A stretch of 64,000 bases of DNA from Halarcobacter sp. GTDB taxonomy: Bacteria > Campylobacterota > Campylobacteria > Campylobacterales > Arcobacteraceae. The stretch lies in NCBI GenBank assembly GCA_963676565.1, contig OY781089.1, positions 1,920,001-1,984,000 of the forward strand, read 5' to 3'. The notes beneath the pieces were generated by a model. It was given only the letters and a program-made list of their open reading frames with translations. It did no database searches and was not told where the DNA came from. The first letter of the stretch is position 1. Each line of letters starts with the position of its first letter. A program made the position numbers and the translations under genes. Shown here piece by piece: positions 1 through 33,194 of this stretch.

Positions 1-1455
1 ACTCAATTTCAGATACAACAAACTATGCAATTAATGAAACAACAGGTGAAGTTACACTTACAGAAGCAGGAGCTAATTTAGTTAACTCTGGACAAGAGTT
101 ACCAGCATTTAATGTAACAGCAACAAGTGCAGGAGTAGATGGTTCAAGCCAAACAGTACAAAACTTAGATCCAGCAGTTACAACAGTAAATGATGCTATG
201 ACTGGCTTTGAGATGAATGAAGTTAATAACTTCACTGAAGATTCAACATCTGCAGGAGATACAGTAACAACAGTAAAAACTGCACCAAGTGATGAAGATG
301 GTGGAGATATCACATACTCAATTTCAGATACAACAAACTATGCAATTAATGAAACAACAGGTGAAGTTACACTTACAGAAGCAGGAGCTAATTTAGTTAA
401 CTCTGGACAAGAGTTACCAGCATTTAATGTAACAGCAACAAGTGCAGGAGTAGATGGTTCAAGCCAAACAGTACAAAACTTAGATCCAGCAGTTACAACA
501 GTAAATGATGCTATGACTGGCTTTGAGATGAATGAAGTTAATAACTTCACTGAAGATTCAACATCTGCAGGAGATACAGTAACAACAGTAAAAACTGCAC
601 CAAGTGATGAAGATGGTGGAGATATCACATACTCAATTTCAGATACAACAAACTATGCAATTAATGAAACAACAGGTGAAGTTACACTTACAGAAGCAGG
701 AGCTAATTTAGTTAACTCTGGACAAGAGTTACCAGCATTTAATGTAACAGCAACAAGTGCAGGAGTAGATGGTTCAAGCCAAACAGTACAAAACTTAGAT
801 CCAGCAGTTACAACAGTAAATGATGCTATGACTGGCTTTGAGATGAATGAAGTTAATAACTTCACTGAAGATTCAACATCTGCAGGAGATACAGTAACAA
901 CAGTAAAAACTGCACCAAGTGATGAAGATGGTGGAGATATCACATACTCAATTTCAGATACAACAAACTATGCAATTAATGAAACAACAGGTGAAGTTAC
1001 ACTTACAGAAGCAGGAGCTAATTTAGTTAACTCTGGACAAGAGTTACCAGCATTTAATGTAACAGCAACAAGTGCAGGAGTAGATGGTTCAAGCCAAACA
1101 GTACAAAACTTAGATCCAGCAGTTACAACAGTAAATGATGCTATGACTGGATTTGAGATGAATGAAGTTAATAACTTCACTGAAGATTCAACATCTGCAG
1201 GAGATACAGTAACAACAGTAAAAACTGCACCAAGTGATGAAGATGGTGGAGATATCACATACTCAATTTCAGATACAACAAACTATGCAATTAATGAAAC
1301 AACAGGTGAAGTTACACTTACAGAAGCAGGAGCTAATTTAGTTAACTCTGGACAAGAGTTACCAGCATTTAATGTAACAGCAACAAGTGCAGGAGTAGAT
1401 GGTTCAAGCCAAACAGTACAAAACTTAGATCCAGCAGTTACAACAGTAAATGATG
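1..1455 (+). repeat. 315-bp tandem repeat, about 4.6 visible copies, essentially identical
   Basis: actcaatttcagatacaaca recurs at 1, 316, 631, 946 and 1261. The only difference I noticed is c>a at 1151. Confidence 0.95.
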
Positions 1456-4400
1456 AAACAGTAGTGGTAGAAGATAATGTAACTACAAGTGAAGATATTG
1501 CAATAAATATTGATGTTTTAGTAAATGATACAGATGAAGAAGGTAATATATCACCAGTTGTTTCAGTTACACAAGGTTCAAATGGAACTGTAACAATTAA
1601 TGAAGATGGAACAGTAAAATATACACCAAATGAAGACTTCAATGGAACAGATAGCTTTACATATACAAACGAAGAGGGAAACACAGAAACTGTAAATGTA
1701 ATAGTAGATCCAACAAATGATAATCCTATAGCCGTAGATGATGGTAATATCTCATCAGTTACGTACACAGTAAATGTAGACAATGTTCTAAATACAGATG
1801 CTTTTACCGTAAAAGCTTATAATAGTGAAGGAGTTGAAGGAGAATTAGCATTAAGAAAAGATTCAAGTCCTGAAGGTTTTGGTGTAGCTGGTGATGATGT
1901 TTCTAATGGAGCTTCTTCTGAAATTGGTGGTGAAGAGTATATTGCAATAGAATTCAAAGATGATATTCAAAGTGTTGATGTTTCTTTTGCTTGGATGGCA
2001 TCATCAGAAAATGCAGAAATTGGCTTTTATAAAGATGGTGTACTTATAGACACTCAGTACAAAATGGGTGGTACAGATAGAGTTGATGGACCTTATAATT
2101 ATGAAACTTCAGATGGACAAGCATTTGATGAAATTCGATTTGCCGGGTATGGAACAAATTCTGATTTCCTATTACATGAAATAACTGTAAATACAGTGGA
2201 TTCAACATTTGAAACAAATGAAGACACAGCAATTACTATTGATGTATTAGATAATGATACTGATGTAGAGGGAGATGAACTATCAATTATCCAAATCCAA
2301 GGGCAAGATGTAAGTACTGGTCAAACAGTTAATATCTCTGAAAATGGTGAAGTTATTGGTACAGCAAAAGTTGTTAATGGACAAATTGAGTTTACTCCTG
2401 GGGAAAATTTACAAAACCTTAGTGATGGTGAAAATCAAAATGTGACTTTTGATTATACTGTTAGTGATGGTAGTTTAACTGATACTGCAAATGTAACAGT
2501 TAATGTTACAGGAATAACAGATAACTTTGTTCCAACAAGCGAAGATGAATCTCAGTCAATCAAGTTTGAAAGTTTAAATGAAATTGATACAACATCAACT
2601 AATCTTATAATTACTCTAGATACTTCAGGTTCAATGTCTATGGAAGATTATGGAGGGGTTGTTACATTAGATGATGGATCAACTACAACAAGATTTGAAA
2701 TTGCAAAAAATTCATTAATTGATACAATAGAAGCATATAAAGAACAAGGTTCAATTGATGTAAACTTAACATTATTTGGAAGTTCAGGAGCAAACATTGG
2801 ATGGATGAGTTCAGATGAAGCAATCACCTATTTAGAAAGTCTATCAATGGATCAAAATGGAGACTTATTAAAAGATGGAAATGATTATAATGTTTCGGGA
2901 AATGGTACTGATTATTATGAAGCAATTACTGCAACAGATAATATTGATTTTAGTGGTCATCCTGCAGATAAGAATGTGGGTATATTTATATCTGATGGTG
3001 ATCCAACAGAAAATTGGTGGATGGTAAATAGTGAATATGATTCAGCAATTCAAAACTGGAAATCTTTTATTGATAATAATAATATTGATTTAAGTGTTTA
3101 TGGAATAGGTGAAAATGTAAGTTCTTCTTACCTAGACATTATTCAAGTTACTGATGGTAAAGTTGCCTCAATTATTACAAATGAAGCAGATATGTCAGAT
3201 ACATTAGTTGCTGAAGCAATTTCTAAAAGTGTAAGTGGGAATATTTTAGATAATGTTAGTGGTGGAGATGGAGATATATCAATCGTAAAAATAACTATTG
3301 ATGGCGTTGATTACACTGCAAGTGATATGCCTATAACAACACCTGATGGTGCAACATTAAATGTTGACTTCTCAAGTGGTAACTATACATATTCTGCTAA
3401 GGCAAATTTATTTACTGAAGATACTACAGAAACATTTATCGTTACAGCTTCAGATGAAGATGGTGATGAAACAAACTTTAATGTACATATAAATATAGAT
3501 GCTGCAGACTCACAAAATTATATTCAAAGTGACTATGATTACTGGGCTGATAATGAAAATATAGATGGAACAGTAAACAGTGATTATATTAATATTGGAA
3601 CGGGAAATAATAAAACTATTAATGCTGGTGATGGAGATGATATAATTGATACACCAATACAAGTCGGAAATAATTTAGGTACAGGTCATATTATTGATGG
3701 AGGAGAAGGAAACGATAAGTTAATTATTGATGATGTATTAGATAGTGGTTCTTATAAATATGAAATTACAGCTAATGGAGACGGAACATTTGATATTGAA
3801 AAAATTGGATACAATGATTATAGTCAATGGTCTTTAAATCATTATGCCGTTACAGTTGATAGTATAGAAGCAATAGAGTTTACTGACAAAACTTTTGTAT
3901 TAAATGATTCTGGTGATGCTTTTGTTGAAAGTACAGACAGTAGTGCCGATGACTTACTAGTAGCAACTTTAGTTGATGGTATCGTAGAAGGTGCTTATTA
4001 TGAAACTTCTTCAGGAGTAACAGGATACACAGATGAAAATGGTAACTTTAACTTTAGAGAAGGGGATTCTGTAACATTTAGTGTTGGTGGAGTAGTTTTA
4101 GGTACTGCAACAGCAGAAGATATCGCTTCAGGTCAAACTTTCTTACAAGATATAGCTGATGTAGATAGAACAGATTTAAATGATGAGTACCTAGAAAACA
4201 TGGCAGTATTCCTACAATCTATTGACACAGCAGATAGTGGTGATGATATTGTTATTACACAAGCTATGAGAGATGCCCTTGCTGACGTGACAATAGACCT
4301 TACAACTGCAACAGAAGAGGAAATTAAATCTTTAATTGAATCAATTGGTGGAAACTATGTAGGTGAAGATGCAGCAATGGTTCACGTTCAAGAGATGCTT

Positions 4401-5027
4401 CAAGAGTATGCAGGTATAGATGAATCTGAGTTTGATGAAAGAATATCTGATGATACATTAACTGCAACATTAGGAAAAGAACCACAAGCAGGAATTGAGT
4501 TTACAACTTCTTCAGGAGTTTCAGGAACTACAAATGATGATGGAAGTTTCTTCTATAATGAAGGAGATGAAATCACATTTACAAAAGATGGAGAAGTATT
4601 ATCAACAATAGATTCAAATGCCATTGGTGATGATTCATTAATTACATTTAATGAACTAGAAAGTTTAAATCAAACAGAAATAGACTTTGACAATCTTGAA
4701 CTTGATTTTGATAATTTAAATGAGATTACAGATAGTGATGATACTACAGTTTACGAAAAAGATGAGTCTTTAGAAGATAAAGAAATCGCTATGGAAGATA
4801 TGCTTACAAGTGAAGACTCTGATTCTTCTTTATCAACTTTACTAGGTGAAACAGAAGAGGATAGAAATATCACTTCGCTAGATGAACTTAAAACCGAAGA
4901 AACAACTACTCAAGATGATGGAAATGATGAATATTGCCCATTTAAAGCTTTAGAAGAAAGTTCTGGAAATCTTATTTCAAATATTGAAGCTGATGACACA
5001 ACAGATATAGATGATCATAATTCATAA
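1..5027 (+). CDS. Giant repetitive surface adhesin (cadherin/Ig-like repeats, vWA domain, RTX-like Ca-binding motifs), 5'-truncated by the window edge
   Basis: Reading frame open from the window start (ORF track begins at an internal Met, 198). 105-aa tandem repeats, tandem-95/VCBS-like segments, vWA MIDAS motif DTSGSMS, glycine/aspartate motifs GDGDDII and GGEGNDKL, very acidic composition. Confidence 0.85.
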   Translation, partial: SISDTTNYAINETTGEVTLTEAGANLVNSGQELPAFNVTATSAGVDGSSQTVQNLDPAVTTVNDAMTGFEMNEVNNFTEDSTSAGDTVTTVKTAPSDEDGGDITYSISDTTNYAINETTGEVTLTEAGANLVNSGQELPAFNVTATSAGVDGSSQTVQNLDPAVTTVNDAMTGFEMNEVNNFTEDSTSAGDTVTTVKTAPSDEDGGDITYSISDTTNYAINETTGEVTLTEAGANLVNSGQELPAFNVTATSAGVDGSSQTVQNLDPAVTTVNDAMTGFEMNEVNNFTEDSTSAGDTVTTVKTAPSDEDGGDITYSISDTTNYAINETTGEVTLTEAGANLVNSGQELPAFNVTATSAGVDGSSQTVQNLDPAVTTVNDAMTGFEMNEVNNFTEDSTSAGDTVTTVKTAPSDEDGGDITYSISDTTNYAINETTGEVTLTEAGANLVNSGQELPAFNVTATSAGVDGSSQTVQNLDPAVTTVNDETVVVEDNVTTSEDIAINIDVLVNDTDEEGNISPVVSVTQGSNGTVTINEDGTVKYTPNEDFNGTDSFTYTNEEGNTETVNVIVDPTNDNPIAVDDGNISSVTYTVNVDNVLNTDAFTVKAYNSEGVEGELALRKDSSPEGFGVAGDDVSNGASSEIGGEEYIAIEFKDDIQSVDVSFAWMASSENAEIGFYKDGVLIDTQYKMGGTDRVDGPYNYETSDGQAFDEIRFAGYGTNSDFLLHEITVNTVDSTFETNEDTAITIDVLDNDTDVEGDELSIIQIQGQDVSTGQTVNISENGEVIGTAKVVNGQIEFTPGENLQNLSDGENQNVTFDYTVSDGSLTDTANVTVNVTGITDNFVPTSEDESQSIKFESLNEIDTTSTNLIITLDTSGSMSMEDYGGVVTLDDGSTTTRFEIAKNSLIDTIEAYKEQGSIDVNLTLFGSSGANIGWMSSDEAITYLESLSMDQNGDLLKDGNDYNVSGNGTDYYEAITATDNIDFSGHPADKNVGIFISDGDPTENWWMVNSEYDSAIQNWKSFIDNNNIDLSVYGIGENVSSSYLDIIQVTDGKVASIITNEADMSDTLVAEAISKSVSGNILDNVSGGDGDISIVKITIDGVDYTASDMPITTPDGATLNVDFSSGNYTYSAKANLFTEDTTETFIVTASDEDGDETNFNVHINIDAADSQNYIQSDYDYWADNENIDGTVNSDYINIGTGNNKTINAGDGDDIIDTPIQVGNNLGTGHIIDGGEGNDKLIIDDVLDSGSYKYEITANGDGTFDIEKIGYNDYSQWSLNHYAVTVDSIEAIEFTDKTFVLNDSGDAFVESTDSSADDLLVATLVDGIVEGAYYETSSGVTGYTDENGNFNFREGDSVTFSVGGVVLGTATAEDIASGQTFLQDIADVDRTDLNDEYLENMAVFLQSIDTADSGDDIVITQAMRDALADVTIDLTTATEEEIKSLIESIGGNYVGEDAAMVHVQEMLQEYAGIDESEFDERISDDTLTATLGKEPQAGIEFTTSSGVSGTTNDDGSFFYNEGDEITFTKDGEVLSTIDSNAIGDDSLITFNELESLNQTEIDFDNLELDFDNLNEITDSDDTTVYEKDESLEDKEIAMEDMLTSEDSDSSLSTLLGETEEDRNITSLDELKTEETTTQDDGNDEYCPFKALEESSGNLISNIEADDTTDIDDHNS

Positions 5028-5100: not shown

Positions 5101-5176
5101 GACCCTGTCGTCTAGTGGCCAAGGACATTTGGATTTCCTCCAAAGAACGTAGGTTCAAATCCTACTGGGGTCGCCA
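5101..5176 (+). tRNA. tRNA-Glu (anticodon TTC at 5135-5137), atypical anticodon loop
   Basis: Cloverleaf: acceptor GACCCTG/TGGGGTC, D-arm GTCT/GGAC, anticodon stem TTTGG/CCAAA with loop ATTTCCT, T-arm GTAGG-TTCAAAT-CCTAC, discriminator G, encoded CCA. Confidence 0.85.
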
Positions 5177-10845: not shown

Positions 10846-12582
10846 ATGAAGAAAACAATGGTAATTAAAAGGTTTTTTGCTTATTCTGAAGTTAATAATA
10901 AATATTTTAATGCAAACTTTATTGATGGAGTAAATATTGTTTATGGCAAAAATACTTCTGGGAAAAGTACACTCTTACAATCATTACTTTATACTTTTGG
11001 AATAAATGATGAGATAACAAAATTAAAAGATGTTTTAGATGAAAAAGTTATTTTTAGAATAGATTTTGATTTAGTTAGTGATAGCATAGAACATGTAAGT
11101 ATTGTTAGAGATGATGAGCTTATAATAATTAAAAGAGATAATATACCTATTAAGAAATTCATAGGTATAAGTGGTGATAAATCAGCGGAACATAAAGCTT
11201 TGAAGTTATATTTAGGAGAACTATTTAATTTTACTTTACATTTGGAAAGTTCTGGTGAATATAAACAAGCCTCTATAGAGTCTATGTTTTTACCTTATTA
11301 TGTGGCACAAGATGTGGGATGGGTATATAGACATAAATCATTTAGAGGATTGGATTTTATAAAAAACTTTAAAAGGGATTTTTTTGACTATTATTTAGGA
11401 ATCATTAATGATTATGATAGGGAAGAAAAAACTAAATTAGAAAAAGAAAAAGCTGAATTTGAAAATGAAATTAAGTTTTTATCTAATTTTGAAAGAAAAA
11501 GTGATGATATTTTATTATCTAAATTAAAGGATGAAAAATTTGTTATAGAAGCTAATAAATATATAGATGAATACACTAAAAACAAAACAGAACTAATAAA
11601 ACTTGAGAAGGATTATATTCTTAAATCAAATAAACTTTCTTATTTAGAAGAAAGAAAAAAAATTTTAAATAAAGTAAAAACTGCATTAAAGAAACAAGTT
11701 CCTTTAGAGTGTAATTGTCCTACATGTAATCAGAAATTACCTAATAACATTGAAGCAATATATACATATTATCAAAATATTAATGATAATAATAAACAAA
11801 TTAGTGATATCAATAAAAAAATAGAAGAATTAAAGAAGCTTAAAGGAACTATTAATTCCTTAGAAAAAAAGATTCAAGAATTAAAAACTTTAATTTTCAA
11901 AGATTATGAGATTTTATCAAAATATCAAATTGATGAATTAAGCTTTGAAACATGGATCACTAATAAAACTAATGTAAAATTATCTGAAAATATAGAACAA
12001 AAAATTGGAAAAATAGTAATTGAACTTGATAAAGTGGATGAGAAATTAAAAGCATTTAAAACTGATAAGGAAATATTGTCAGAACGTAGTAAAATGGATT
12101 ATAAGTTTAAAATTTATTTTGAACGATATCTTAAGGATTTAGGTGTTAAAGAGTTTGATAATGATAGGTTTCTTCTATTATACAAAATTCCTGCATTTCC
12201 AAGACAAGGTGTAGAACTTTTAAAAACCTTACTCGCTTATAATTTTGCATTTAATAAGATAATTGAAGAAACTAGTTATGTACATAGATTCCCCTTTTTA
12301 CTAGATGCAATTTTTGAGGGTGACTTTGAAGATGATAATAGAGAAAAAGTATTAAGTTTTATTAGTAAAAATTATCCATCTGATACTCAACTAATTTTTT
12401 CAATAGCTGACTCAAAAAACAATCAAATTTCAGTAAATGATTATAATGAAAAATTTTTTCATAAAAATGCTAGTCTTATATGTATTGGAAATAATGAAAA
12501 TGAGAGAGCTTTTTTAAGTAAATATCAAAATGAATTTGATGATTATTTGGATGAGACGTTAGAACTTATTAATTATATTTAA
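10846..12582 (+). CDS. Lamassu LmuB-like SMC/ABC ATPase
   Basis: Walker A GKNTSGKST, Q-loop YVAQD, coiled coil with CPTC hook, C-terminal LAY..A and FPFLLD Walker B. 1 bp gap from the upstream gene. Confidence 0.75.
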   Translation: MKKTMVIKRFFAYSEVNNKYFNANFIDGVNIVYGKNTSGKSTLLQSLLYTFGINDEITKLKDVLDEKVIFRIDFDLVSDSIEHVSIVRDDELIIIKRDNIPIKKFIGISGDKSAEHKALKLYLGELFNFTLHLESSGEYKQASIESMFLPYYVAQDVGWVYRHKSFRGLDFIKNFKRDFFDYYLGIINDYDREEKTKLEKEKAEFENEIKFLSNFERKSDDILLSKLKDEKFVIEANKYIDEYTKNKTELIKLEKDYILKSNKLSYLEERKKILNKVKTALKKQVPLECNCPTCNQKLPNNIEAIYTYYQNINDNNKQISDINKKIEELKKLKGTINSLEKKIQELKTLIFKDYEILSKYQIDELSFETWITNKTNVKLSENIEQKIGKIVIELDKVDEKLKAFKTDKEILSERSKMDYKFKIYFERYLKDLGVKEFDNDRFLLLYKIPAFPRQGVELLKTLLAYNFAFNKIIEETSYVHRFPFLLDAIFEGDFEDDNREKVLSFISKNYPSDTQLIFSIADSKNNQISVNDYNEKFFHKNASLICIGNNENERAFLSKYQNEFDDYLDETLELINYI

Positions 12583-12606
12583 GAAAATAGAAAATAGGGG
12601 TCAGGT

Positions 12607-12694
12607 GATAACGATAACTTTCTTTTAAATTAGATAGATTACAGTATTGCAAAGTGCAATATTTATAAGTAAAGATATTTTTTAATGTTATTAT
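12607..12694 (+). repeat. Imperfect ~88-bp intergenic direct repeat, copy 1
   Basis: gataacgataac...ttttaaattagatagattacagTATTGCAaagTGCAATA...atgttattat aligns with 16536-16620. Confidence 0.7.
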
Positions 12695-12766
12695 ATTTCA
12701 AAAGTTTTATAAACCATTTTCCTGACTTCGGGAACATGGTTATCAAATCCAATAAAAGGTTTTATT

Positions 12767-13165
12767 TTGGAACAAGATTATAACAACTGGAACAATATTA
12801 AAAAAGAAATTGCAAAAGATAATATATCTGTAGGATTTAAAAATAGAGATATATTTTATATGAATATGGGCAAAAATATTGGTTTTGAACAAGATGGCAA
12901 AGGTAAAAACTTTGTTCGTCCTGTAGTCGTTGTGAAAGGGTTCAATAAAAATATGTTTTTTGGTATTCCTTTATCTACAAAAATAAAAGAGGGTAAGTTT
13001 TATTATAGATTTTCATTTTATAAAAAAGATAAAGAAGTAGAAAATATTGCTTTGTTATCTCAAATGAGACTTTTCAGTACAAAAAGACTTTTAAATAAAA
13101 TTGGAATGATGAATATTGGGGATTTTAAAAATATGAAAAATAAATTTAAAGAATTGATAGATTAA
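12767..13165 (+). CDS. PemK/MazF-family endoribonuclease toxin, no adjacent protein antitoxin
   Basis: Motifs G.NIGFEQDG, RPVVVVK, GIPLST and LSQMRLFSTKRL..KIG. TTG start. Confidence 0.8.
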   Translation: MEQDYNNWNNIKKEIAKDNISVGFKNRDIFYMNMGKNIGFEQDGKGKNFVRPVVVVKGFNKNMFFGIPLSTKIKEGKFYYRFSFYKKDKEVENIALLSQMRLFSTKRLLNKIGMMNIGDFKNMKNKFKELID

Positions 13166-13259
13166 CCCCATCAAAAAGATGGGTCGTCCCGTAGGAATTT
13201 AGAATATGATTATAACACAAATTATAAATAAATGCAACAACAAACAAAGGTAAATTACA

Positions 13260-14735
13260 ATGAACCTATCTAAATCCCTCTACACAAAAGGTATCCAATG
13301 CCCCAAAGCACTTTGGCTTAAAAAATATAAGCCAAGTGTTCTAACACCACCAGATGAACAAGCCCAAGCTATATTTGAAACTGGAAATATAGTAGGGGAT
13401 TTAGCTTGCCAGCTTTTCCCTGATGGTAGGGAAGTGGCATATACTACAAGTTATGATGAGATGATATATACTACAAAAGAGTGGATGGAAGAGGGTGTAT
13501 CAAATATCTATGAAGCTACTTTTAGCTATGAGGGCATACTTATCATGGTAGATATTTTAAAAGTAGAAAGTGATGGTGTATCTATCTATGAGGTTAAAAG
13601 TTCTACTGAGGTAAAAGATATTTATATTCATGATGTATCTATTCAGTATTATGTTTTACAAAACTTAGGCTTTAGTATAAAAAGTGCAAGTGTAGTGCAT
13701 ATAAACAATGAGTATGTAAGATGTGAGTCTTTAGAGTTATACAAGCTTTTTAAGATAGTTGATGTCACAAGTGAAGTACAAAGCTTACAATCAAATATCC
13801 CAAATATATTAAAAGAGTTTGAAATCTATTTAGAAGATAAAGTAAATGAGCCAGATATAGATATAGGAAAACATTGTAATAAACCTTATGAGTGTGATGC
13901 TAAAAATTATTGTTGGAAAGTACAAAGGCAGATACCTGAGTACTCTATCTTTAATATTTTCAATCTAGGAAGTAAAAAGCAAGTGGAATTATACAATCAA
14001 GGTATCATAGATATAGAAGATATCCCAGTAGATTTTGATATGACTGCAAACCAAAAACAAGCAGTAGAAAACTACAAATCAAAAGCAAGCTATATAGACA
14101 AAGAAAATATCAAAGCCTTTTTAGAAAACCTCAGATATCCAATCTATCACTTAGACTTTGAAACCTACCAACAAGCCATACCACAATACAAAGGTATAAA
14201 ACCCTTCGAGCAAATCCCTTTTCAATACTCACTTCATATAGAGTATGAAGATGGTACTTTGGAGCATAAAGAGTATTTGAGTGAGGATAGTGTAGATAGT
14301 AGATATGAATTAGCACAAAAACTATGTGAAGATATCCCAAGTGATGTTACAGTATTAGCTTACAATATGAGTTTTGAAAAAGGTGTGATAAAAAGACTAG
14401 CAAACCTTTTCCCTGACCTAAGCTCACACCTACTAGCTATAAATGAAAATATGCAAGACCTAATGCTACCTTTCCAAAAAAAGTGGTATCTAACACCAAG
14501 TATGAAAGGAAGCTACTCTATAAAGTATGTATTACCAGCACTTGTACCAGAGTTTGAAAAAGCATATAAAGAGTTAGAAGGTGTACAAAATGGAAGCCAA
14601 GCTATGAATGCCTTTACAAATCTAAGTAAACTAGATGAGGTAAGTAAACAGAAGATGAGAACTTCACTTTTCGAGTATTGTAAACTTGATACGTTAGCTA
14701 TGGTGAAGATATTAAATAAATTGAAGGGAGTTTAA
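13260..14735 (+). CDS. DUF2779-type protein: N-terminal RecB/Cas4-like nuclease plus C-terminal RNase H-like/DnaQ exonuclease-like domain
   Basis: LSKS..CPK.LWL start, DIL...YEVKSS..D..IQYYV, Cys cluster HCNKPYEC...YCW, then HLDFET, AYN..FEK, SIKYVLP and YCKLDT. Confidence 0.8.
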   Translation: MNLSKSLYTKGIQCPKALWLKKYKPSVLTPPDEQAQAIFETGNIVGDLACQLFPDGREVAYTTSYDEMIYTTKEWMEEGVSNIYEATFSYEGILIMVDILKVESDGVSIYEVKSSTEVKDIYIHDVSIQYYVLQNLGFSIKSASVVHINNEYVRCESLELYKLFKIVDVTSEVQSLQSNIPNILKEFEIYLEDKVNEPDIDIGKHCNKPYECDAKNYCWKVQRQIPEYSIFNIFNLGSKKQVELYNQGIIDIEDIPVDFDMTANQKQAVENYKSKASYIDKENIKAFLENLRYPIYHLDFETYQQAIPQYKGIKPFEQIPFQYSLHIEYEDGTLEHKEYLSEDSVDSRYELAQKLCEDIPSDVTVLAYNMSFEKGVIKRLANLFPDLSSHLLAINENMQDLMLPFQKKWYLTPSMKGSYSIKYVLPALVPEFEKAYKELEGVQNGSQAMNAFTNLSKLDEVSKQKMRTSLFEYCKLDTLAMVKILNKLKGV

Positions 14736-14736
14736 A

Positions 14737-15153
14737 TTGGAAGAAAAAAAAGAAGAGAATAAAAATATTTTAGAAATAGAATGTCCCCATTGTAGTGAGG
14801 CAAATACAATAAAACTGTCAAATGAAATTAAATGTAAAAAATGTAATAAAACATTACAAGGATTTAAATATAAAAGTATTATATTAAGTGGATTAACAAC
14901 TTTAATTATAGGATCCGGAATTGGTGTTACAGCAGATGCTTATTTAAATATTAATAGAGCATCAGTTAAAACTGAATATAAGATGATGAAAACATGTATT
15001 AGTAATCATGGGAATTATAAAAGTGTAAGAGATAATTGTGCTTGTGCAGTTGAATCAATGCTTGGAGTTATAGATGCACAAAAAGCTAGACTTTATTCAG
15101 GTGAATGGTTAGAAAATATTTTAAATGAAAAATATAAAGATTGTAGGGACTAA
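14737..15153 (+). CDS. Hypothetical protein with zinc ribbon, one transmembrane segment and Cys-rich C-terminus
   Basis: CPHC...CKKC, hydrophobic stretch IILSGLTTLIIGSGIGV, later C..CAC..C. TTG start 1 bp after the previous gene. Confidence 0.6.
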   Translation: MEEKKEENKNILEIECPHCSEANTIKLSNEIKCKKCNKTLQGFKYKSIILSGLTTLIIGSGIGVTADAYLNINRASVKTEYKMMKTCISNHGNYKSVRDNCACAVESMLGVIDAQKARLYSGEWLENILNEKYKDCRD

Positions 15154-15482
15154 TCAAACCAATGTTCTGGTTTTTCATCATCTAAAAGTTCTTGAATAAA
15201 ATATGTTTCATTTAAGAACTTGTAAAAATCATTAAGTTGATTTATTGTTTCTCTTTGGAAATTTCTTTTTTCTTCTATGCCTTCTTTCCATCGTTCGATT
15301 TTTCTTTTTAAATTCTTTACTTCTGTATCTTCTTCAAGATGGATACTTAAATAAAATTTTGCAAAACCATATATATTGTTTGGTTCAAATTTATCTGTTT
15401 CTTGTATCTCTTTTTCAAATAAATTCCATAGATTTACAAATTCTTCATAATTAGAATTTTTTGTCCCCATTTTTGTCCCCAT
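15150..15482 (-). CDS. Small helical hypothetical protein, possibly a DNA-binding regulator, divergent from the peptide-Thg1 unit
   Basis: 110-aa ORF. The first 8 codons (MGTK MGTK) come from a 12-bp tandem repeat, so the true start is uncertain. Confidence 0.5.
   Translation of the reverse strand: MGTKMGTKNSNYEEFVNLWNLFEKEIQETDKFEPNNIYGFAKFYLSIHLEEDTEVKNLKRKIERWKEGIEEKRNFQRETINQLNDFYKFLNETYFIQELLDDEKPEHWFD
15459..15482 (+). repeat. 12-bp tandem direct repeat TTTTGTCCCCAT x2, candidate operator
   Basis: Exact copies at 15459-15470 and 15471-15482, with a GC-rich core in an AT-rich divergent promoter region. Confidence 0.7.
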
Positions 15483-15545
15483 AATAATTGTTAATATTCT
15501 AAATAGTTATTTAAATAATAACTAAAAAATCAAAAGGAGAAGATT

Positions 15546-15686
15546 ATGTCAAACAATAATCATAAAGCAAATCAAGGAAATTCAAACAAAGGTACAAGTG
15601 GTACAAATAGTGCCTATGCAAAAGTTCATGGAAATAGAGGTACCCAAATGAATCCAAATAATACAAAAGGTTCAAGGGGTAAATAA
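15546..15686 (+). CDS. Unannotated 46-aa Asn/Gly/Lys-rich peptide MSNNNHKANQGNSNKGTSGTNSAYAKVHGNRGTQMNPNNTKGSRGK
   Basis: RBS AAAGGAG (15533-15539) before ATG 15546. Its TAA overlaps the next ATG (TAATG), indicating translational coupling. Not in the ORF track. Confidence 0.8.
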   Translation: MSNNNHKANQGNSNKGTSGTNSAYAKVHGNRGTQMNPNNTKGSRGK

Positions 15687-16477
15687 TGGACTTAAATAAA
15701 GAGTTAGAAACATTATTTGAAAAGTATAAAAGAATTGAACACGAATCATTAAAAATTGATATAGTTCCAGATAATAAATTTTTAGTTGTAAGGCTTGATG
15801 GATTTAAAGTAACAAAAAACTATTTAAAAGATGTTATTGTAAATGAAAAACTTACGAATGCTATGAACTATTCAATTAATCAACTTTTTAAAAGGTTTAG
15901 AACTTATTTTACTAATGAATATTCTTCTTCAATAATAGGGACATTTTATGCAAACGATGAAGTTTCAATAATCCTCTCTAATAAAATGAATTTATCAAAA
16001 GATACTTATGGGCGAAACCTAGAAATAAAAAGAGTAATGAAAGTTTGTACAATATTTGCAGGAGCAATTTCATCATTTATGACAGAAAAAATGAATGAAA
16101 TTTTATATTTTGATGCAAGACCATTAATATTAAGTCAAAATGAACTTGGAGAATATATTTATTCAAGGCAATTAGTGGCTACTAGATATGCTTACTGGAA
16201 AATATTAAGATTAAATAATATAGAAGGATGGGAACAGGATTTTTATAAAAAAGATTTATTGAATTCTAAAAATAAAGTTAGTGAAATAGGTAAACGACAG
16301 GATGCGAATAAAATTATTAATTCATATTCTTATAATTTGATTGATAATAATATTAAACCTTCTTTTGTTTCATATAATCTATTCAAAAAGTATAACAATA
16401 GTGATGAAATTCAGAAATCAATTGATGAAAAAATTAATCAAATTATAATGTCAAGAGAGAAAATAGTGAAAATTTAA
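15686..16477 (+). CDS. Divergent Thg1-like (tRNA-His guanylyltransferase family) 3'-5' polymerase/nucleotidyltransferase
   Basis: Ordered Thg1 motifs: VVRLDG (D38), NDEVS (D91/E92), R..K (116-119), FDAR (142-145), Y...RQ (157-162). Confidence 0.75.
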   Translation: MDLNKELETLFEKYKRIEHESLKIDIVPDNKFLVVRLDGFKVTKNYLKDVIVNEKLTNAMNYSINQLFKRFRTYFTNEYSSSIIGTFYANDEVSIILSNKMNLSKDTYGRNLEIKRVMKVCTIFAGAISSFMTEKMNEILYFDARPLILSQNELGEYIYSRQLVATRYAYWKILRLNNIEGWEQDFYKKDLLNSKNKVSEIGKRQDANKIINSYSYNLIDNNIKPSFVSYNLFKKYNNSDEIQKSIDEKINQIIMSREKIVKI

Positions 16478-16535
16478 CTAGCTAACACCTCTGAGGATGA
16501 ATCTCCACTTTTACTAAGGAAGCTCTTAGTGAATA

Positions 16536-16620
16536 GATAGCGATGACTATTTTAAATTAATAGATTATGATATTGCAAAGTGTAATACTTTTTAATAAAA
16601 ATATTTTTTTATGTTATCAT
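16536..16620 (+). repeat. Imperfect intergenic direct repeat, copy 2
   Basis: gatagcgatgactattttaaattaatagattatgaTATTGCAaagTGTAATA...atgttatcat aligns with 12607-12694. Confidence 0.7.
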
Positions 16621-16683
16621 TTATGGATATTTCCTAAAAATAGAAAAACGATAAATATATTTATTTCAAAGTAGGGCAGTAAT

Positions 16684-17322
16684 ATGAATGAAGTAATAAT
16701 TGATGAAGATATAAAAAATAAAATCTATACTATAAGAGATATGCAAGTTATGCTTGATAGTGACTTAGCAAAACTTTATGATGTGGAATCTAAAAGACTT
16801 AATGAACAAGTAAAAAGAAATATTGCACGATTTCCCCAACAGTTTCGTTTTCAACTTACTGAAGAAGAATATCAAAACTTGAGGTCGCAATTTGCGACCT
16901 CAAGTTCAAATGATTCTTTAAGGTCGCAATTTGCGACCTTAGAAAATATGAGAGGAAAGCATAGGAAATATTTACCTTATGTATTTACAGAGCAGGGTGT
17001 TTCTATGCTTTCAGCAGTACTTAAAAGTGATAAAGCTATTGAGATAAGTATCCATATTATAAATAGTTTTGTTAAGATGAGACAATTTTTGTCACACAGT
17101 GGTGATGTATTTAAACGACTAGAATTAGTTGAAAAAAGGCAAATAACTTATGAAATAAAAACAGATAAAAAATTTGAAAATTCACATGATAGATTTTTGA
17201 TATTAGATGATAAAGAACTTTACCATATAGGAGCTAGTTTGAAAGATTTAGGTAAAAAGTGGTTTGCTTTTTCAAAGATGGATTTAAGAAGTTTTGATGT
17301 TTTAGAAAGGTTAGAAACTTGA
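16684..17322 (+). CDS. ORF6N (KilA-N-like) domain DNA-binding protein, probably internally deleted
   Basis: IYTIR..QVMLDSDLA.LY.VE...LNEQVKRN..RFP..F.FQLT and PYVFTEQGVSMLS motifs. C-terminal HDRFLILD...YHIGASLKDLGKKWF. Confidence 0.85.
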   Translation: MNEVIIDEDIKNKIYTIRDMQVMLDSDLAKLYDVESKRLNEQVKRNIARFPQQFRFQLTEEEYQNLRSQFATSSSNDSLRSQFATLENMRGKHRKYLPYVFTEQGVSMLSAVLKSDKAIEISIHIINSFVKMRQFLSHSGDVFKRLELVEKRQITYEIKTDKKFENSHDRFLILDDKELYHIGASLKDLGKKWFAFSKMDLRSFDVLERLET

Positions 17323-17350
17323 TACTTTGGCTATGGTGAAGATATTGAAG

Positions 17351-17376
17351 AAGTTGAAAATTGAAATTTTCAACTT
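17351..17376. terminator. Inverted repeat at the right edge of the accessory island
   Basis: AAGTTGAAAATT-ga-AATTTTCAACTT. Confidence 0.45.
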
Positions 17377-17453
17377 ACATTTTTAGGTAATGTTATTATA
17401 ATCTTCTTTTACTATAGTGCAAATATTATATTATGCTTTATATGGAGAAAAAT

Positions 17454-18446
17454 ATGAATAATAAAAAAATACCATTATCTGTATTAGATTTAATTCCAGT
17501 AGGTGAGGGCTTCACCATACCACAAGCTATTGAAAACAGTACAAAACTAGCCCAAGGGGTTGAAAAGTTTGGATTTACTCGTTATTGGGTTGCGGAACAT
17601 CACAATTTCCCAGGAATTGCTAGTGCCGCTACTTCTGTTGTCTTAAGTTATATTGGGTCACAAACTAAAAACATAAGAATAGGTTCGGGTGGGATTATGT
17701 TGCCCAATCACTCCCCTTTAGTTATTGCAGAGCAATTTGGTACTTTGGAGTCTTTATATCCAAATAGAATAGATTTAGGACTAGGTAGAGCTCCTGGTAC
17801 TGATAGACAAACAATGATGGCATTAAGACGAGATATTAATAATGATGATTTTCCTTCGATGCTTAAATATTTACAATACTATTTATCAGATGAAGCAGGT
17901 AAAAAAGGGATAAAAGCAATACCCGGATTCGGATTAGATATTCCTATTTGGTTACTTGGTTCTAGTACCTTTAGTGCACAATTAGCTGCCCAAAAAGGTT
18001 TACCTTTTGTTTTTGCTTCACACTTTGCACCTGATTTGATGGATGATGCTGTAAGAATATATAAACAAAACTTTAAACCATCTGCTCAACTAAAAGAGCC
18101 TTATGTAATGGTTTGTATCAATATTGTATGTGCAGACACAAATGAAGAAGCTCAATATTTAGCCACAACTGAACTTCAAAAATTTCTTTATCTTCATAGG
18201 GGAGACAATAAACAATTACCAAAACCAACAGAAGACATGAATAGCTTATGGGAAGAGTGGGAAGAACGAGGTATAAGACATAAAACAAGAGAGTCTATCT
18301 GGGGAACACCAGAATATGTTAAAGAAAGACTTGAACGTCTTATTGAAAGAACTGGTGCAAATGAAATCATGGTAAACTCAATGATACATGATCCAGATAA
18401 AAGAATAAAATCCTATGAACTTATCTCAAAAGTTTGGTTTGAGTAA
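17454..18446 (+). CDS. LLM-class flavin-dependent oxidoreductase (luciferase-like monooxygenase, YhbW type)
   Basis: LSVLDL, YWVAEHHN, IRIGSGGIMLPNH, RIDLGLGRAPG and WLLGSS motifs. Start placed at 17454 after GGAG. Confidence 0.9.
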   Translation: MNNKKIPLSVLDLIPVGEGFTIPQAIENSTKLAQGVEKFGFTRYWVAEHHNFPGIASAATSVVLSYIGSQTKNIRIGSGGIMLPNHSPLVIAEQFGTLESLYPNRIDLGLGRAPGTDRQTMMALRRDINNDDFPSMLKYLQYYLSDEAGKKGIKAIPGFGLDIPIWLLGSSTFSAQLAAQKGLPFVFASHFAPDLMDDAVRIYKQNFKPSAQLKEPYVMVCINIVCADTNEEAQYLATTELQKFLYLHRGDNKQLPKPTEDMNSLWEEWEERGIRHKTRESIWGTPEYVKERLERLIERTGANEIMVNSMIHDPDKRIKSYELISKVWFE

Positions 18447-33095: not shown

Positions 33096-33194
33096 GGGGG
33101 GTATGTGACCCTGGTGGGCACCACAGGCTTCAACCCTGATTGGCGGTTTATGTGTATACGCCGCGGTAGGTTCGATTCCTACACCTTCTCGCCA
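33096..33194 (+). tRNA. selC: tRNA-Sec (anticodon TCA at 33130-33132)
   Basis: D-loop TGGT, anticodon arm CAGG-CTTCAAC-CCTG, long variable arm GGCG...CGCC, T-arm GTAGG-TTCGATT-CCTAC, 3' GCCA. Divergent from selA, with TATAAT at 33076-33081. Confidence 0.92.

What the first reader, a model, noticed from the sequence alone, without database searches (positions are those of the whole stretch)
15150..16477. Thg1-like 3'-5' polymerase coupled to an unannotated 46-aa Asn/Gly peptide, with a divergent small ORF and tandem repeat, inside a defence island
Seen: 15686-16477 has the ordered Thg1 motifs (RLDG D38, NDE D91/E92, R..K, FDAR, Y...RQ) but has diverged after the DG motif and in the C-terminus. 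A 46-codon ORF with a strong RBS overlaps its start (TAATG). A 110-aa gene runs divergently across a 63-bp gap, with TTTTGTCCCCAT x2 at its start. Neighbours are Lamassu-like, MazF and DUF2779 genes. Established: Thg1/TLPs use two acidic residues for 3'-5' nucleotide addition to RNA 5' ends, and most bacteria encode G-1 of tRNA-His, so no housekeeping need is expected. Inference: a regulator-peptide-enzyme module acting in anti-phage defence or as a toxin-antitoxin unit. The enzyme could modify or repair tRNA 5' ends or make a nucleotide product, and the disordered Ser/Thr/Tyr-containing peptide could be its inhibitor, trigger or protein primer. I know of no described defence system built on Thg1.
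Basis: partly seen in the sequence, partly recalled or inferred. Interest (0 to 1): 0.85.

Follow-up and report, generated by a model that had tools for sequence, protein, structure and literature searches.

The report
Thg1-like effector behind conserved small peptide
A rare relative of the tRNA-end-repair enzyme Thg1 sits in a swappable gene slot, filled in other bacteria by known RNA-cutting toxins, directly behind a tiny and very conserved peptide, which points to a new kind of toxin-antitoxin or anti-phage module.

Summary
15686-16477 encodes a 263-aa Thg1-superfamily protein: the AlphaFold model has pLDDT 94, all 32 significant PDB fold hits are Thg1/TLP, and D38, D91 and E92 are invariant. 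It is rare (75 representatives in 1.84 billion proteins; 6 of 184 genomes of the family). It is not needed for tRNA-His, because G-1 is encoded in the genome.

The 46-codon ORF is a real gene with a strong RBS and a TAATG overlap. It belongs to a large, unnamed, very conserved small-protein family (at least 1017 clusters across phyla, often mislabelled "alpha-amylase").

The gene that follows the peptide varies. It is HicA in 9 of 22 places in the family's genomes, the Thg1-like gene in 6 and an NYN RNase in 1. In Vibrionaceae the neighbours are ParE-like and ThsB-TIR genes. Two genomes of one genus share about 95% identical flanks and differ only in this slot (Thg1-like versus NYN).

The divergent 110-aa gene and a Zn-ribbon membrane protein go with the peptide, not with Thg1. 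The GTCCCC repeat is conserved in 10 of 11 loci.

Best reading (about 0.5): the Thg1-like enzyme is an RNA-5'-end-modifying toxin or effector in a peptide-gated TA-like or defence cassette. Toxicity, substrate and peptide binding are untested.

The parts
15686..16477 (+). Thg1-like (TLP-like) 3'-5' nucleotidyltransferase-fold gene, 263 aa. It occupies the variable 'effector' slot of the cassette.
   Evidence: Pfam Thg1 E 1.8e-05, 25.1 bits, below the 29.2 cut-off. The family profile hits PDB Thg1/TLP at 4.6e-13 to 5.1e-09. AlphaFold2 pLDDT 94.3. All 32 Foldseek hits at E<=0.001 are Thg1/TLP. D38, D91 and E92 are invariant.
15546..15686 (+). 46-aa basic Asn/Gly-rich peptide gene (MSNNNHKANQGNSNKGTSGTN...GNRGTQMNPNN...), the conserved first gene of the cassette. 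Its stop overlaps the Thg1-like start (TAATG).
   Evidence: The family has at least 1017 clusters. The peptide is 87-96% identical between loci whose Thg1-like proteins are 36-37% identical. Nucleotide differences concentrate at third codon positions.
15535..15539 (+). Shine-Dalgarno AGGAG, 6 nt before the peptide's ATG.
   Evidence: Read directly from the sequence. AAAGGAG is conserved in the window and L006, and is AAAGGAT in L001.
15150..15482 (-). Divergent 110-aa gene of unknown function. It models as four helices. Its true start is probably the second ATG (M5).
   Evidence: M5 invariant in 11 homologs; pLDDT 80.2, four helices; no fold match at E<=0.001. No hit in Pfam, NCBIfam, PADLOC or PHROGs.
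15458..15481 (.). Exact tandem repeat TTTTTGTCCCCA x2 (minus strand: ATGGGGACAAAA x2) at the start of the 110-aa gene.
   Evidence: Two tandem GGGGACA-type copies occur in 10 of 11 homologous loci, whether or not the first copy is coding.
14737..15153 (+). 138-aa protein with an N-terminal CxxC...CxxC zinc ribbon, one hydrophobic segment and a Cys-rich C-terminal part. It is convergent with the 110-aa gene and travels with the 110-aa gene and the peptide.
   Evidence: Weak zinc-ribbon matches. Homologs sit in the same position in L001, L019, L023, L029, L030, L031, L034 and L036. The membrane segment was judged by eye.

Best explanation
The locus is a small conflict cassette (toxin-antitoxin-like or anti-phage). 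Its conserved part is a 42-50-aa basic Asn/Gly-rich 'NPNN' peptide. In this bacterial family the peptide is accompanied by a divergent 110-aa protein and a Zn-ribbon membrane protein. The second operon position is a swappable effector slot.

In this genome the slot holds a catalytically intact, divergent Thg1/TLP-family enzyme. In other genomes it holds HicA, an NYN RNase or a ParE-like toxin.

Shown here: the fold, the active-site conservation, the accessory (patchy) distribution, the translational coupling and the slot exchange.

Inferred: the Thg1-like enzyme acts as the toxin or effector. It would add nucleotides to, or adenylylate, the 5' ends of tRNAs or other RNAs and so block translation. 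That would make it a 5'-end counterpart of toxins that modify tRNA 3' ends. The peptide, made first and in at least equal amount, would keep the enzyme inactive or would gate it, until stress or phage infection removes the peptide.
For: 1. Thg1 fold and chemistry.
- AlphaFold2 model pLDDT 94.3 and pTM 0.91.
- Foldseek finds 32 PDB hits at E<=0.001, all Thg1/TLP; the best is 4kgk_A at 2.1e-10 with target TM up to 0.68.
- The family profile hits six distinct Thg1/TLP PDB sequences at 4.6e-13 to 5.1e-09 and aligns RLDG with RIDG, DEvS with DEYS and FDaR with FDSR.
- 44 of 44 family members match Pfam Thg1 at E<=0.001.
- D38, D91, E92 and D143 are invariant and R145 nearly so.

2. An accessory gene, not housekeeping.
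- 75 representatives at E<=0.001 among 1.84 billion proteins.
- Present in 6 of 184 genomes of the family and 4 of 22 genera.
- It is the only Thg1 match in the window's own genome.
- tRNA-His has an encoded G-1.

3. The slot is shared with known toxins. The gene after the peptide, at the 22 peptide places in 21 of 184 genomes, is:
- HicA at 9 places (Pfam PF07927, E 1.6e-15, tested on one);
- the Thg1-like gene at 6;
- NYN at 1 (PF01936, E 1.9e-27);
- an unknown 117-aa protein at 1;
- nothing adjacent at 4;
- a fused 98-aa form at 1.

4. Direct exchange of the slot. L019 and L023 come from two genomes of one genus. Their flanks are 95.9% identical over 1639 nt, up to the peptide's stop codon, and 94.4% identical over 773 nt from the next gene onward. 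Between these flanks lies the Thg1-like gene in one genome and NYN in the other.

5. The same coupling junction. TAATG is the junction in 4 of the 5 Thg1-like loci checked and in 7 of the 8 HicA loci checked.

6. In Vibrionaceae the peptide occurs in 25 of 301 genomes at 27 places, next to:
- ParE-like genes at 12 places (two tested: E 9.9e-17 and 7.4e-05);
- convergent ThsB-TIR genes at 4 places (one tested: E 9.4e-18).
It is also fused to larger proteins.

7. Fusions of the peptide motif to a ParE_like domain and to a Zc3h12a-type RNase exist.

8. The window locus lies beside Lamassu, MazF and PDC-S05 genes.
Against: - Nothing shows toxicity, an RNA substrate or peptide-enzyme binding.
- Characterised TLPs are repair enzymes, not toxins.
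- The peptide hardly changes (87-96% identity) between loci whose partner enzymes are 36-37% identical or unrelated. This does not fit a classical co-evolving antitoxin that binds its toxin specifically.
- The peptide also occurs with no adjacent effector at 4 of 22 places. At 6 of 27 Vibrionaceae places its immediate partner is only an acidic peptide. So it has a function of its own.
- The ThsB-TIR neighbours are convergent, not co-operonic.
- 4 of the 13 Thg1-like loci with enough upstream sequence (L002, L004, L005, L009) have no NPNN peptide of either kind.
- No PADLOC model matches the enzyme, the peptide or the 110-aa protein.
- Most partner assignments were made by eye from script listings. 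Only one or two members of each class were scanned against Pfam.
Confidence: 0.5

Rival explanations
1. RNA-repair enzyme. Like characterised bacterial TLPs, the protein would rebuild 5'-truncated tRNAs, for example after damage by a phage or by a competitor's nuclease. The peptide would be an unrelated stress protein that shares the operon.
For: The best fold matches are bacterial and archaeal TLPs (4kgk, 4kgm, 5axk to 5axn), which are solved with tRNA or NTP. The DxR signature, linked to 5' activation in passages of PMC2904730, is retained as D143-A-R145. Thg1 occurs sporadically in jumbo phages as a presumed repair function (passage of PMC7824862).
Against: The reported repair contexts for bacterial Thg1 are polynucleotide kinase, Macro and RNA ligase neighbours (PMC2904730 passages) and Tpt1 (PMC8120803 passage). 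None of these appears among the ten window neighbours scanned. The same slot holds HicA, NYN and ParE-like toxins, which damage RNA rather than repair it.
Confidence: 0.15
2. Peptide-modifying enzyme. The Thg1-like protein would nucleotidylate the peptide on Thr, Ser or Lys, or prime on it. The result would be a modified peptide or a protein-linked nucleotide product.
For: The two genes are tightly coupled by the TAATG overlap. The peptide has invariant G16, T17, G19 and N21 within KGTSGTN across 70 sequences. Thg1 chemistry includes an adenylylation step (abstract of PMC2904730).
Against: The same peptide precedes HicA, NYN and ParE-like proteins, which are not nucleotidyltransferases. Tyr24 is Asn in L001 and L019. 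4 of 13 Thg1-like loci lack any such peptide.
Confidence: 0.1
3. Signal-nucleotide synthase. As a palm-domain relative of GGDEF, Cas10 and mCpol enzymes, the protein would make a nucleotide second messenger that activates another component, for example the Zn-ribbon membrane protein.
For: [quoted passage not shown] Weak Foldseek hits to Cas10/Csm1 follow the Thg1 hits at E 0.014-0.04.
Against: All significant fold and sequence matches are to Thg1/TLP itself. The Zn-ribbon and 110-aa genes also accompany cassettes whose slot holds HicA or NYN, so they are not receivers specific to a Thg1 product. No known receptor domain for signal nucleotides was found among the neighbours.
Confidence: 0.07
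4. Housekeeping tRNA-His maturation by addition of G-1.
For: The family name. One metagenomic relative is labelled tRNA(His) 5'-end guanylyltransferase by its source.
Against: The only tRNA-His gene has G at -1 opposite C73. The gene is absent from 178 of 184 genomes of the family. It lies in a low-GC accessory stretch beside defence genes.
Confidence: 0.02

Closest known systems
Bacterial and archaeal Thg1-like proteins (TLPs), e.g. the Bacillus thuringiensis TLP (PDB 4KGK, 4KGM) and the archaeal TLP with tRNA (5AXK to 5AXN)
   Same: Same fold over about 250 aligned columns. Same metal-binding Asp/Asp-Glu and FDxR motifs. Similar size, and a standalone protein.
   Different: Only 14-19% identity to the solved structures. 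Below the Pfam gathering score. PF04446 is the only Pfam family reported, so no C-terminal Thg1 domain is matched. The segment after RLDG differs (RLDGFKxTKxYLKD). The gene context is a peptide-led cassette, not the polynucleotide kinase, ligase or Macro neighbourhoods reported for bacterial Thg1.
Type II toxin-antitoxin pairs with RNA-targeting toxins (HicAB, ParDE/RelBE-like)
   Same: Two short co-directional genes with a stop/start overlap. The same cassette carries HicA or a ParE-like toxin in other genomes. Distribution is patchy and mobile, on plasmids and in an integron cassette array.
   Different: The upstream partner is a 46-aa low-complexity peptide with no recognisable DNA-binding or HicB-type domain. 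It is nearly invariant across unrelated toxins. A Thg1-fold toxin appeared in none of the four literature searches run.
Panacea (PanA), the 'hyperpromiscuous' antitoxin domain, and the NetFlax network
   Same: One partner family is paired with many unrelated toxin domains (abstracts seen in the listing; passages of PMC10440598).
   Different: From recall, Panacea is a folded domain of about 150 aa whose sequence diverges with its toxin. Here the partner is a peptide of about 45 aa that stays 70-96% identical. The main text of PMC10440598 contains no mention of Thg1; its supplements were not read.
tRNA-end-modifying nucleotidyltransferase toxins (MenT-type toxins; toxSAS enzymes that pyrophosphorylate tRNA CCA ends)
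   Same: This is the proposed logic: a nucleotide-transfer enzyme used as a toxin that disables tRNA ends. The toxSAS case is stated in the abstract of PMC11782079 (listing). MenT is recalled and comes from no call.
   Different: Those enzymes act on the 3' CCA end and have unrelated folds. A Thg1-type enzyme would act on the 5' end. No activity has been shown here.

Membership tests
Thg1/TLP superfamily (Pfam PF04446) | Thg1-type palm-domain fold | tested here: met
   AlphaFold2 pLDDT 94.3. All 32 Foldseek PDB hits at E<=0.001 are Thg1/TLP, and the next hit is at E 0.014.
Thg1/TLP superfamily (Pfam PF04446) | Three metal-binding carboxylates (Asp in R-x-D-G; Asp-Glu in S/N-D-E) | tested here: met
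   D38, D91 and E92 are invariant in 44 sequences. They align with RIDG and SDE of yeast Thg1 (5xox).
Thg1/TLP superfamily (Pfam PF04446) | DxR signature at strand 4 (F-D-x-R), linked to the 5'-activation step | tested here: met
   F142-D143-A-R145. D143 is invariant and R145 is present in at least 90%. It aligns with FDSR. The role is taken from passages of PMC2904730.
Thg1/TLP superfamily (Pfam PF04446) | Score above Pfam's curated gathering cut-off | tested here: not met
   25.1 bits against 29.2, and 26.6 bits on the genome scan. However, 44 of 44 relatives match at E<=0.001, the best at 4.6e-14. The protein is therefore a divergent subfamily, not a non-member.
Thg1/TLP superfamily (Pfam PF04446) | 3'-5' nucleotide addition to RNA 5' ends | not testable with these tools
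   Needs an enzyme assay.
Housekeeping tRNA-His guanylyltransferase | The host tRNA-His lacks an encoded G-1, and the gene is conserved across relatives | tested here: not met
   G at -1, C73 and CCA are encoded. The gene is present in 6 of 184 genomes of the family.
Bacterial Thg1 RNA-repair operons | Neighbouring polynucleotide kinase, RNA ligase, Macro or Tpt1 genes | tested here: not met
   No such Pfam family among the ten window neighbours scanned. The expected contexts come from passages of PMC2904730 and PMC8120803.
Type II toxin-antitoxin module | Two small adjacent co-directional genes that are translationally coupled | tested here: met
   TAATG overlap.
Type II toxin-antitoxin module | One partner belongs to a toxin family | tested here: inconclusive
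   Thg1 is not a known toxin family. In homologous cassettes the same position holds HicA, NYN or ParE-like genes.
Type II toxin-antitoxin module | The antitoxin binds and neutralises the toxin, and the toxin alone arrests growth | not testable with these tools
   Needs expression and binding assays.
Catalogued anti-phage defence systems (PADLOC-DB 2.0) | Match to a model of a known or candidate system | tested here: not met
   No hit for the Thg1-like protein, the peptide or the 110-aa protein. The neighbours hit LmuA, LmuB and PDC-S05.

The most novel reading that the evidence does not exclude
The roughly 45-aa NPNN peptide would be a trans-phylum, nearly invariant gatekeeper. Because it does not co-vary with its partners, it would work through a universal cellular target such as RNA or the ribosome, not through toxin-specific binding. 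An acidic NPNN counter-peptide would oppose it. It would arm a whole set of interchangeable effectors (HicA, ParE-like, NYN, TIR, Thg1-like). In this reading the Thg1-like enzyme is the first toxin or defence effector that poisons cells by 3'-5' nucleotide addition to RNA 5' ends.
Probability: 0.25. Interest if true: 0.9.

Novelty: new variant of a known kind. Interest (0 to 1): 0.8.

Why it matters
- Thg1-type reverse (3'-5') polymerases are known from tRNA-His maturation and tRNA repair. Finding one in a slot that exchanges with classical RNA toxins would give the family a conflict role and predict a new way of disabling RNA, at the 5' end.
- The work also exposes a very large, unnamed and mis-annotated small-protein family: at least 1017 clusters, 70-96% identical across distant bacteria. 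Its members sit beside many toxin and defence genes, on plasmids and in an integron cassette array.
- How one nearly invariant peptide can serve unrelated effectors is an open and directly testable question for toxin-antitoxin and anti-phage biology.

Tried and rejected
The verdict was 'no answer', score 0.00. It is not used as evidence either way.
- **Expression.** No RNA holder was listed. Four RNA runs with the same species label had 0 reads laid. This is no test.
- **Viral collections.** No relative of the enzyme in IMG/VR. No tblastn hit of the peptide in 50,697 phage records. No PHROG for the peptide; the enzyme hits phrog_4717, a tRNA-His guanylyltransferase family, at 7.2e-05.
- **Protein Atlas.** Nothing usable for the 110-aa protein. 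Only unnamed clusters for the peptide.
- **110-aa protein.** No PDB fold match at E<=0.001. No convincing similarity to the 230-aa divergent protein of the Vibrionaceae loci (best single-comparison E 0.052), so that homology idea was dropped.
- **Basic versus acidic NPNN peptides.** hhalign gives probability 2.7%, with only an 11-column match at the NPNN motif. Homology is not shown.
- **Rfam** on 12500-17500: no match.
- **Promoter scan:** 17 sites found against 17.4 expected, so it is uninformative. No terminator-like site after the operon.
- **The listing of cluster members**: no organism names; one source label only.
- **Earlier findings of this scan:** none.
- **Literature.** Motif-string searches found nothing relevant. 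Searches for 'Thg1' with 'anti-phage', 'toxin-antitoxin', 'toxin/antitoxin' and 'defense island' found no paper describing a Thg1-based toxin or defence system. Supplements were not read.
It was repeated with a 19-sequence alignment.
Full report
**1. The observation**

- ORF 15686-16477 (+) encodes 263 aa.
- A 46-codon ORF at 15546-15686 (+) is preceded by AGGAG, 6 nt before its ATG. It ends in a TAA that overlaps the next ATG (TAATG).
- A 110-aa ORF at 15150-15482 (-) runs divergently across a 63-bp gap.
- That ORF starts inside an exact 12-nt tandem repeat, TTTTTGTCCCCA x2, at 15458-15481.

The neighbours are:
- LmuA (E 5.5e-126) and LmuB (E 6.8e-223) of Lamassu;
- a PemK/MazF toxin;
- a DUF2779 protein;
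- a 138-aa zinc-ribbon protein;
- downstream, an ORF6N protein that matches the defence candidate PDC-S05.

The genome has 28.4% GC. It is a relative of Malaciobacter canalis, whose chromosome carries the same block at 85% protein identity.

**2. The enzyme**

On its own the protein matches Pfam Thg1 only below threshold (25.1 bits against 29.2, residues 14-140). It matches two solved TLPs weakly (E 0.003 and 0.009).

An exhaustive HMMER search found 75 representatives at E<=0.001 among 1.84 billion proteins.
- An alignment of 44 of them has E18, R36, D38, G39, L47, D91, E92, K119, D143 and P146 invariant.
- All 44 match Pfam Thg1 at E<=0.001, and PF04446 is the only Pfam family reported for them.
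- Their profile hits six distinct Thg1/TLP sequences of the PDB at 4.6e-13 to 5.1e-09. It lines up RLDG with RIDG, DE-S with DEYS and FDAR with FDSR.

The AlphaFold2 model is confident (pLDDT 94.3, pTM 0.91). All 32 Foldseek hits at E<=0.001 are Thg1 or TLP structures. The best is the Bacillus thuringiensis TLP 4kgk_A (2.1e-10, target TM up to 0.68); the next hit has E 0.014.

This is a divergent but catalytically intact subfamily of the Thg1 superfamily. The DxR signature, linked in passages of PMC2904730 to the 5'-activation step, is retained.

**3. Not housekeeping and not a known repair operon**

ARAGORN finds one tRNA-His(GTG) gene in the genome. The base before +1 is G, the discriminator is C, and CCA is encoded. 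G-1 therefore does not need to be added.

The gene is present in 6 of 184 genomes of the family and in 4 of 22 genera. It is the only Thg1 match in its own genome.

The contexts reported for bacterial Thg1 are polynucleotide kinase, Macro, RNA ligase and Tpt1 (passages of PMC2904730 and PMC8120803). None of them appears among the ten neighbours scanned.

**4. The peptide is the key**

The 46-aa ORF recurs upstream of the Thg1-like gene in all six genomes of the family that have the enzyme, and in one metagenome contig, L006. In L006 it carries a one-base frameshift.

It is far better conserved than the enzyme. Window versus L019 gives 87% for the peptide against 37% for the enzyme. L001 versus L019 gives 96% against 36%.

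It is protein-coding. Over 25 ungapped core codons of 36 distinct genes, differences fall 2743, 2091 and 7023 at codon positions 1, 2 and 3. Synonymous codon differences (4954) outnumber non-synonymous ones (3249). These are pairwise counts and are not independent.

A profile search found 1017 clusters of 23-81 aa at E<=0.01 among 1064 candidates.
- Hosts include Arcobacter, Pasteurella, Pseudoalteromonas, Vibrio, Photobacterium, Aliivibrio, Massilia, Psychroserpens, Ureaplasma and Mycoplasmopsis.
- Several are labelled 'alpha-amylase' by their sources, and none has a Pfam domain.
- The consensus is ..NNHKANQxNSNKGTSGTNxAYAKVHGNRGxQ[LM]NPN...
- Pfam, NCBIfam, PADLOC and PHROGs have no model for it.

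**5. What follows the peptide varies**

In the 184 genomes of the family the peptide occurs in 21 genomes at 22 places. By inspection of the loci, the next gene is:
- a 75-77-aa HicA at 9 places (Pfam HicA_toxin, E 1.6e-15, tested on one; at L040 only a 28-codon remnant of the peptide is left);
- the Thg1-like gene at 6;
- an NYN-domain RNase at 1 (E 1.9e-27);
- an unknown 117-aa Cys-rich protein at 1;
- nothing adjacent at 4;
- a 98-aa fused form at 1.

The junction is the same. TAATG occurs in 4 of the 5 Thg1-like loci checked and in 7 of the 8 HicA loci checked.

The clearest case is a pair of genomes of one genus, L019 and L023.
- Their DNA is 95.9% identical over 1639 nt. This stretch covers the transporter, the Zn-ribbon gene, the 106-aa gene and the peptide, up to the peptide's stop codon.
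- It is 94.4% identical over 773 nt from the next gene onward.
- Between these flanks one genome has the Thg1-like gene and the other has the NYN gene.

In a sample of 301 Vibrionaceae genomes the peptide occurs in 25 genomes at 27 places. By inspection these are:
- 12 places next to ParE-like genes, 4 downstream and 8 upstream (two tested: E 9.9e-17, and 7.4e-05 just under the cut-off);
- 4 places with a convergent ThsB-type TIR gene (one tested: E 9.4e-18);
- 6 places where an acidic 44-47-aa peptide follows directly;
- 2 places followed by a 231-244-aa protein;
- 3 places where the motif is embedded in 236-237-aa proteins.

Longer proteins carrying the motif number 146 at E<=0.001. Examples are a ParE_like domain followed by two peptide copies, and a Zc3h12a-type RNase with the peptide at its C-terminus. 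Some of these may be read-through gene calls.

The motif also occurs on plasmids and in an integron cassette array of a Klebsiella plasmid.

**6. Acidic partner peptides**

A second small protein (..DELD.WSDINNPNNDADMDDWADAHNPNNDDY..) is also strongly conserved between Arcobacteraceae, Vibrionaceae and metagenomes. It lies in these positions:
- after the Thg1-like gene in L006 and L007;
- before it, in a diverged form, in L003;
- after HicA in L026 and L040;
- directly after the basic peptide in Vibrionaceae.

Of the 13 Thg1-like loci with usable upstream sequence:
- 7 have the basic peptide;
- 3 have an acidic one (L006 has both);
- 4 have neither (L002, L004, L005, L009).

The window's genome has no acidic NPNN peptide. 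The basic and acidic families share the NPNN motif, but homology between them is not shown.

**7. The 110-aa gene, the Zn-ribbon gene and the repeat**

Homologs of the 110-aa protein and of the Zn-ribbon protein flank the peptide whether the slot holds the Thg1-like gene, HicA, NYN or nothing (L001, L019, L023, L029, L030, L031, L034, L036, L037). They belong to the peptide's context, not to Thg1. One Thg1-like locus (L005/L009) keeps a 137-aa homolog without the peptide.

The 110-aa protein models as four helices (pLDDT 80.2) and has no significant fold match. A regulator role is therefore possible but unsupported.

The invariant Met is M5, the second ATG. Two tandem GGGGACA(A/T)-type copies occur in 10 of 11 loci, even where the first copy is not in a reading frame with a start codon. 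The repeat is therefore a conserved nucleic-acid feature. Two readings remain:
- the first copy supplies a GGGG(A) Shine-Dalgarno 5 nt before the true ATG;
- the pair is an operator that overlaps the divergent promoter region.

I could not separate these two readings.

**8. Interpretation**

The shown facts are these:
- an intact Thg1-type active site;
- an accessory distribution;
- translational coupling to a conserved peptide;
- exchange of the slot with HicA, NYN and ParE-like genes;
- fusions of the peptide to such toxins;
- a defence-island setting.

They are best explained by a toxin-antitoxin-like or anti-phage cassette in which the Thg1-like enzyme is the effector. The inferred mechanism is that the enzyme adds nucleotides to, or adenylylates, the 5' ends of tRNAs or other RNAs and stops translation, while the peptide restrains or gates it.

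The main difficulty is the peptide's near invariance across unrelated partners, together with its occurrence alone or with only an acidic peptide. This suggests that it acts through something common to all hosts (RNA, the ribosome or a protease), not by toxin-specific binding. I rate the effector reading at about 0.5.

The rivals are a repair enzyme (0.15), a peptide-modifying enzyme (0.1), a signal-nucleotide synthase (0.07) and housekeeping G-1 addition (0.02). The remainder is left open.

**9. Novelty**

In the held library, four searches combining Thg1 with anti-phage, toxin-antitoxin, toxin/antitoxin or defence-island terms returned no paper describing a Thg1-based toxin or defence system. 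Motif-string searches for the peptide returned nothing relevant. The main text of the NetFlax paper does not mention Thg1; its supplements were not read.

I file the locus as a new variant of a known kind: a TA-like or defence cassette with a new effector fold and a new peptide partner. The bolder reading is given separately.

Noticed in passing
L019 (2907-3680) versus L023 (1639-2362): Two genomes of one genus share about 95% identical flanks but carry a Thg1-like gene versus an NYN RNase gene exactly between the peptide's stop codon and the next gene. This is a clean natural cassette swap.
   Followed up: yes
L048, L049, L054, L058, L068 (about 1500-1760, peptide-oriented coordinates); L026 1889-2011: A basic NPNN peptide is directly followed by a conserved acidic NPNN peptide (pI contrast judged by eye). 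In four loci a 244-263-aa protein then follows; a 244-aa relative of it in L046 gave a weak HTH_3 match (E 0.002). This may be a two-peptide module that stands on its own.
   Followed up: partly
L006 104-250: In this metagenome contig the peptide gene is split by one extra base after codon 8 (a CCC run). Both parts keep the conserved residues and the TAATG junction. This could be an assembly error or a real frameshift.
   Followed up: partly
L016/L017/L018, divergent 529-531-aa ORF upstream of the peptide: In three Thg1-like loci the divergent neighbour is a conserved protein of about 530 aa with no Pfam match, instead of the 110-aa gene. One of these loci is on a 140-kb second replicon listed as an Aliarcobacter faecis plasmid.
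   Followed up: partly
L055-L057 (Vibrionaceae): The peptide plus ParE-like pair lies between a radical-SAM gene (Pfam E 9.2e-11) and a P-loop kinase-like gene. By eye this resembles a prokaryotic viperin neighbourhood; that was not tested.
   Followed up: no
window 16684-17322: The ORF6N/PDC-S05 gene is 212 aa here but 268 aa in M. canalis (L001 8938-9744), and its C-terminal part matches a different PDC-S05 model. It may be rearranged or truncated.
   Followed up: no
window 3-5027: A very long open frame (over 1600 aa) runs off the window's start. Regularly spaced 96-aa antisense ORFs every 315 nt suggest that it is a highly repetitive large surface protein gene.
   Followed up: no
window 33096-33190: A tRNA-SeC (TCA) gene. 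A tRNA-Glu lies at 5101-5176, just before the putative sbcCD genes (SbcC-type domains in the 1051-aa ORF; the 403-aa ORF was not scanned) and the Lamassu genes.
   Followed up: no
L042 3917-4198 (Klebsiella plasmid): A 93-aa ORF carrying the peptide motif lies in an integron cassette array between two beta-lactamase cassettes. It was only described.
   Followed up: no
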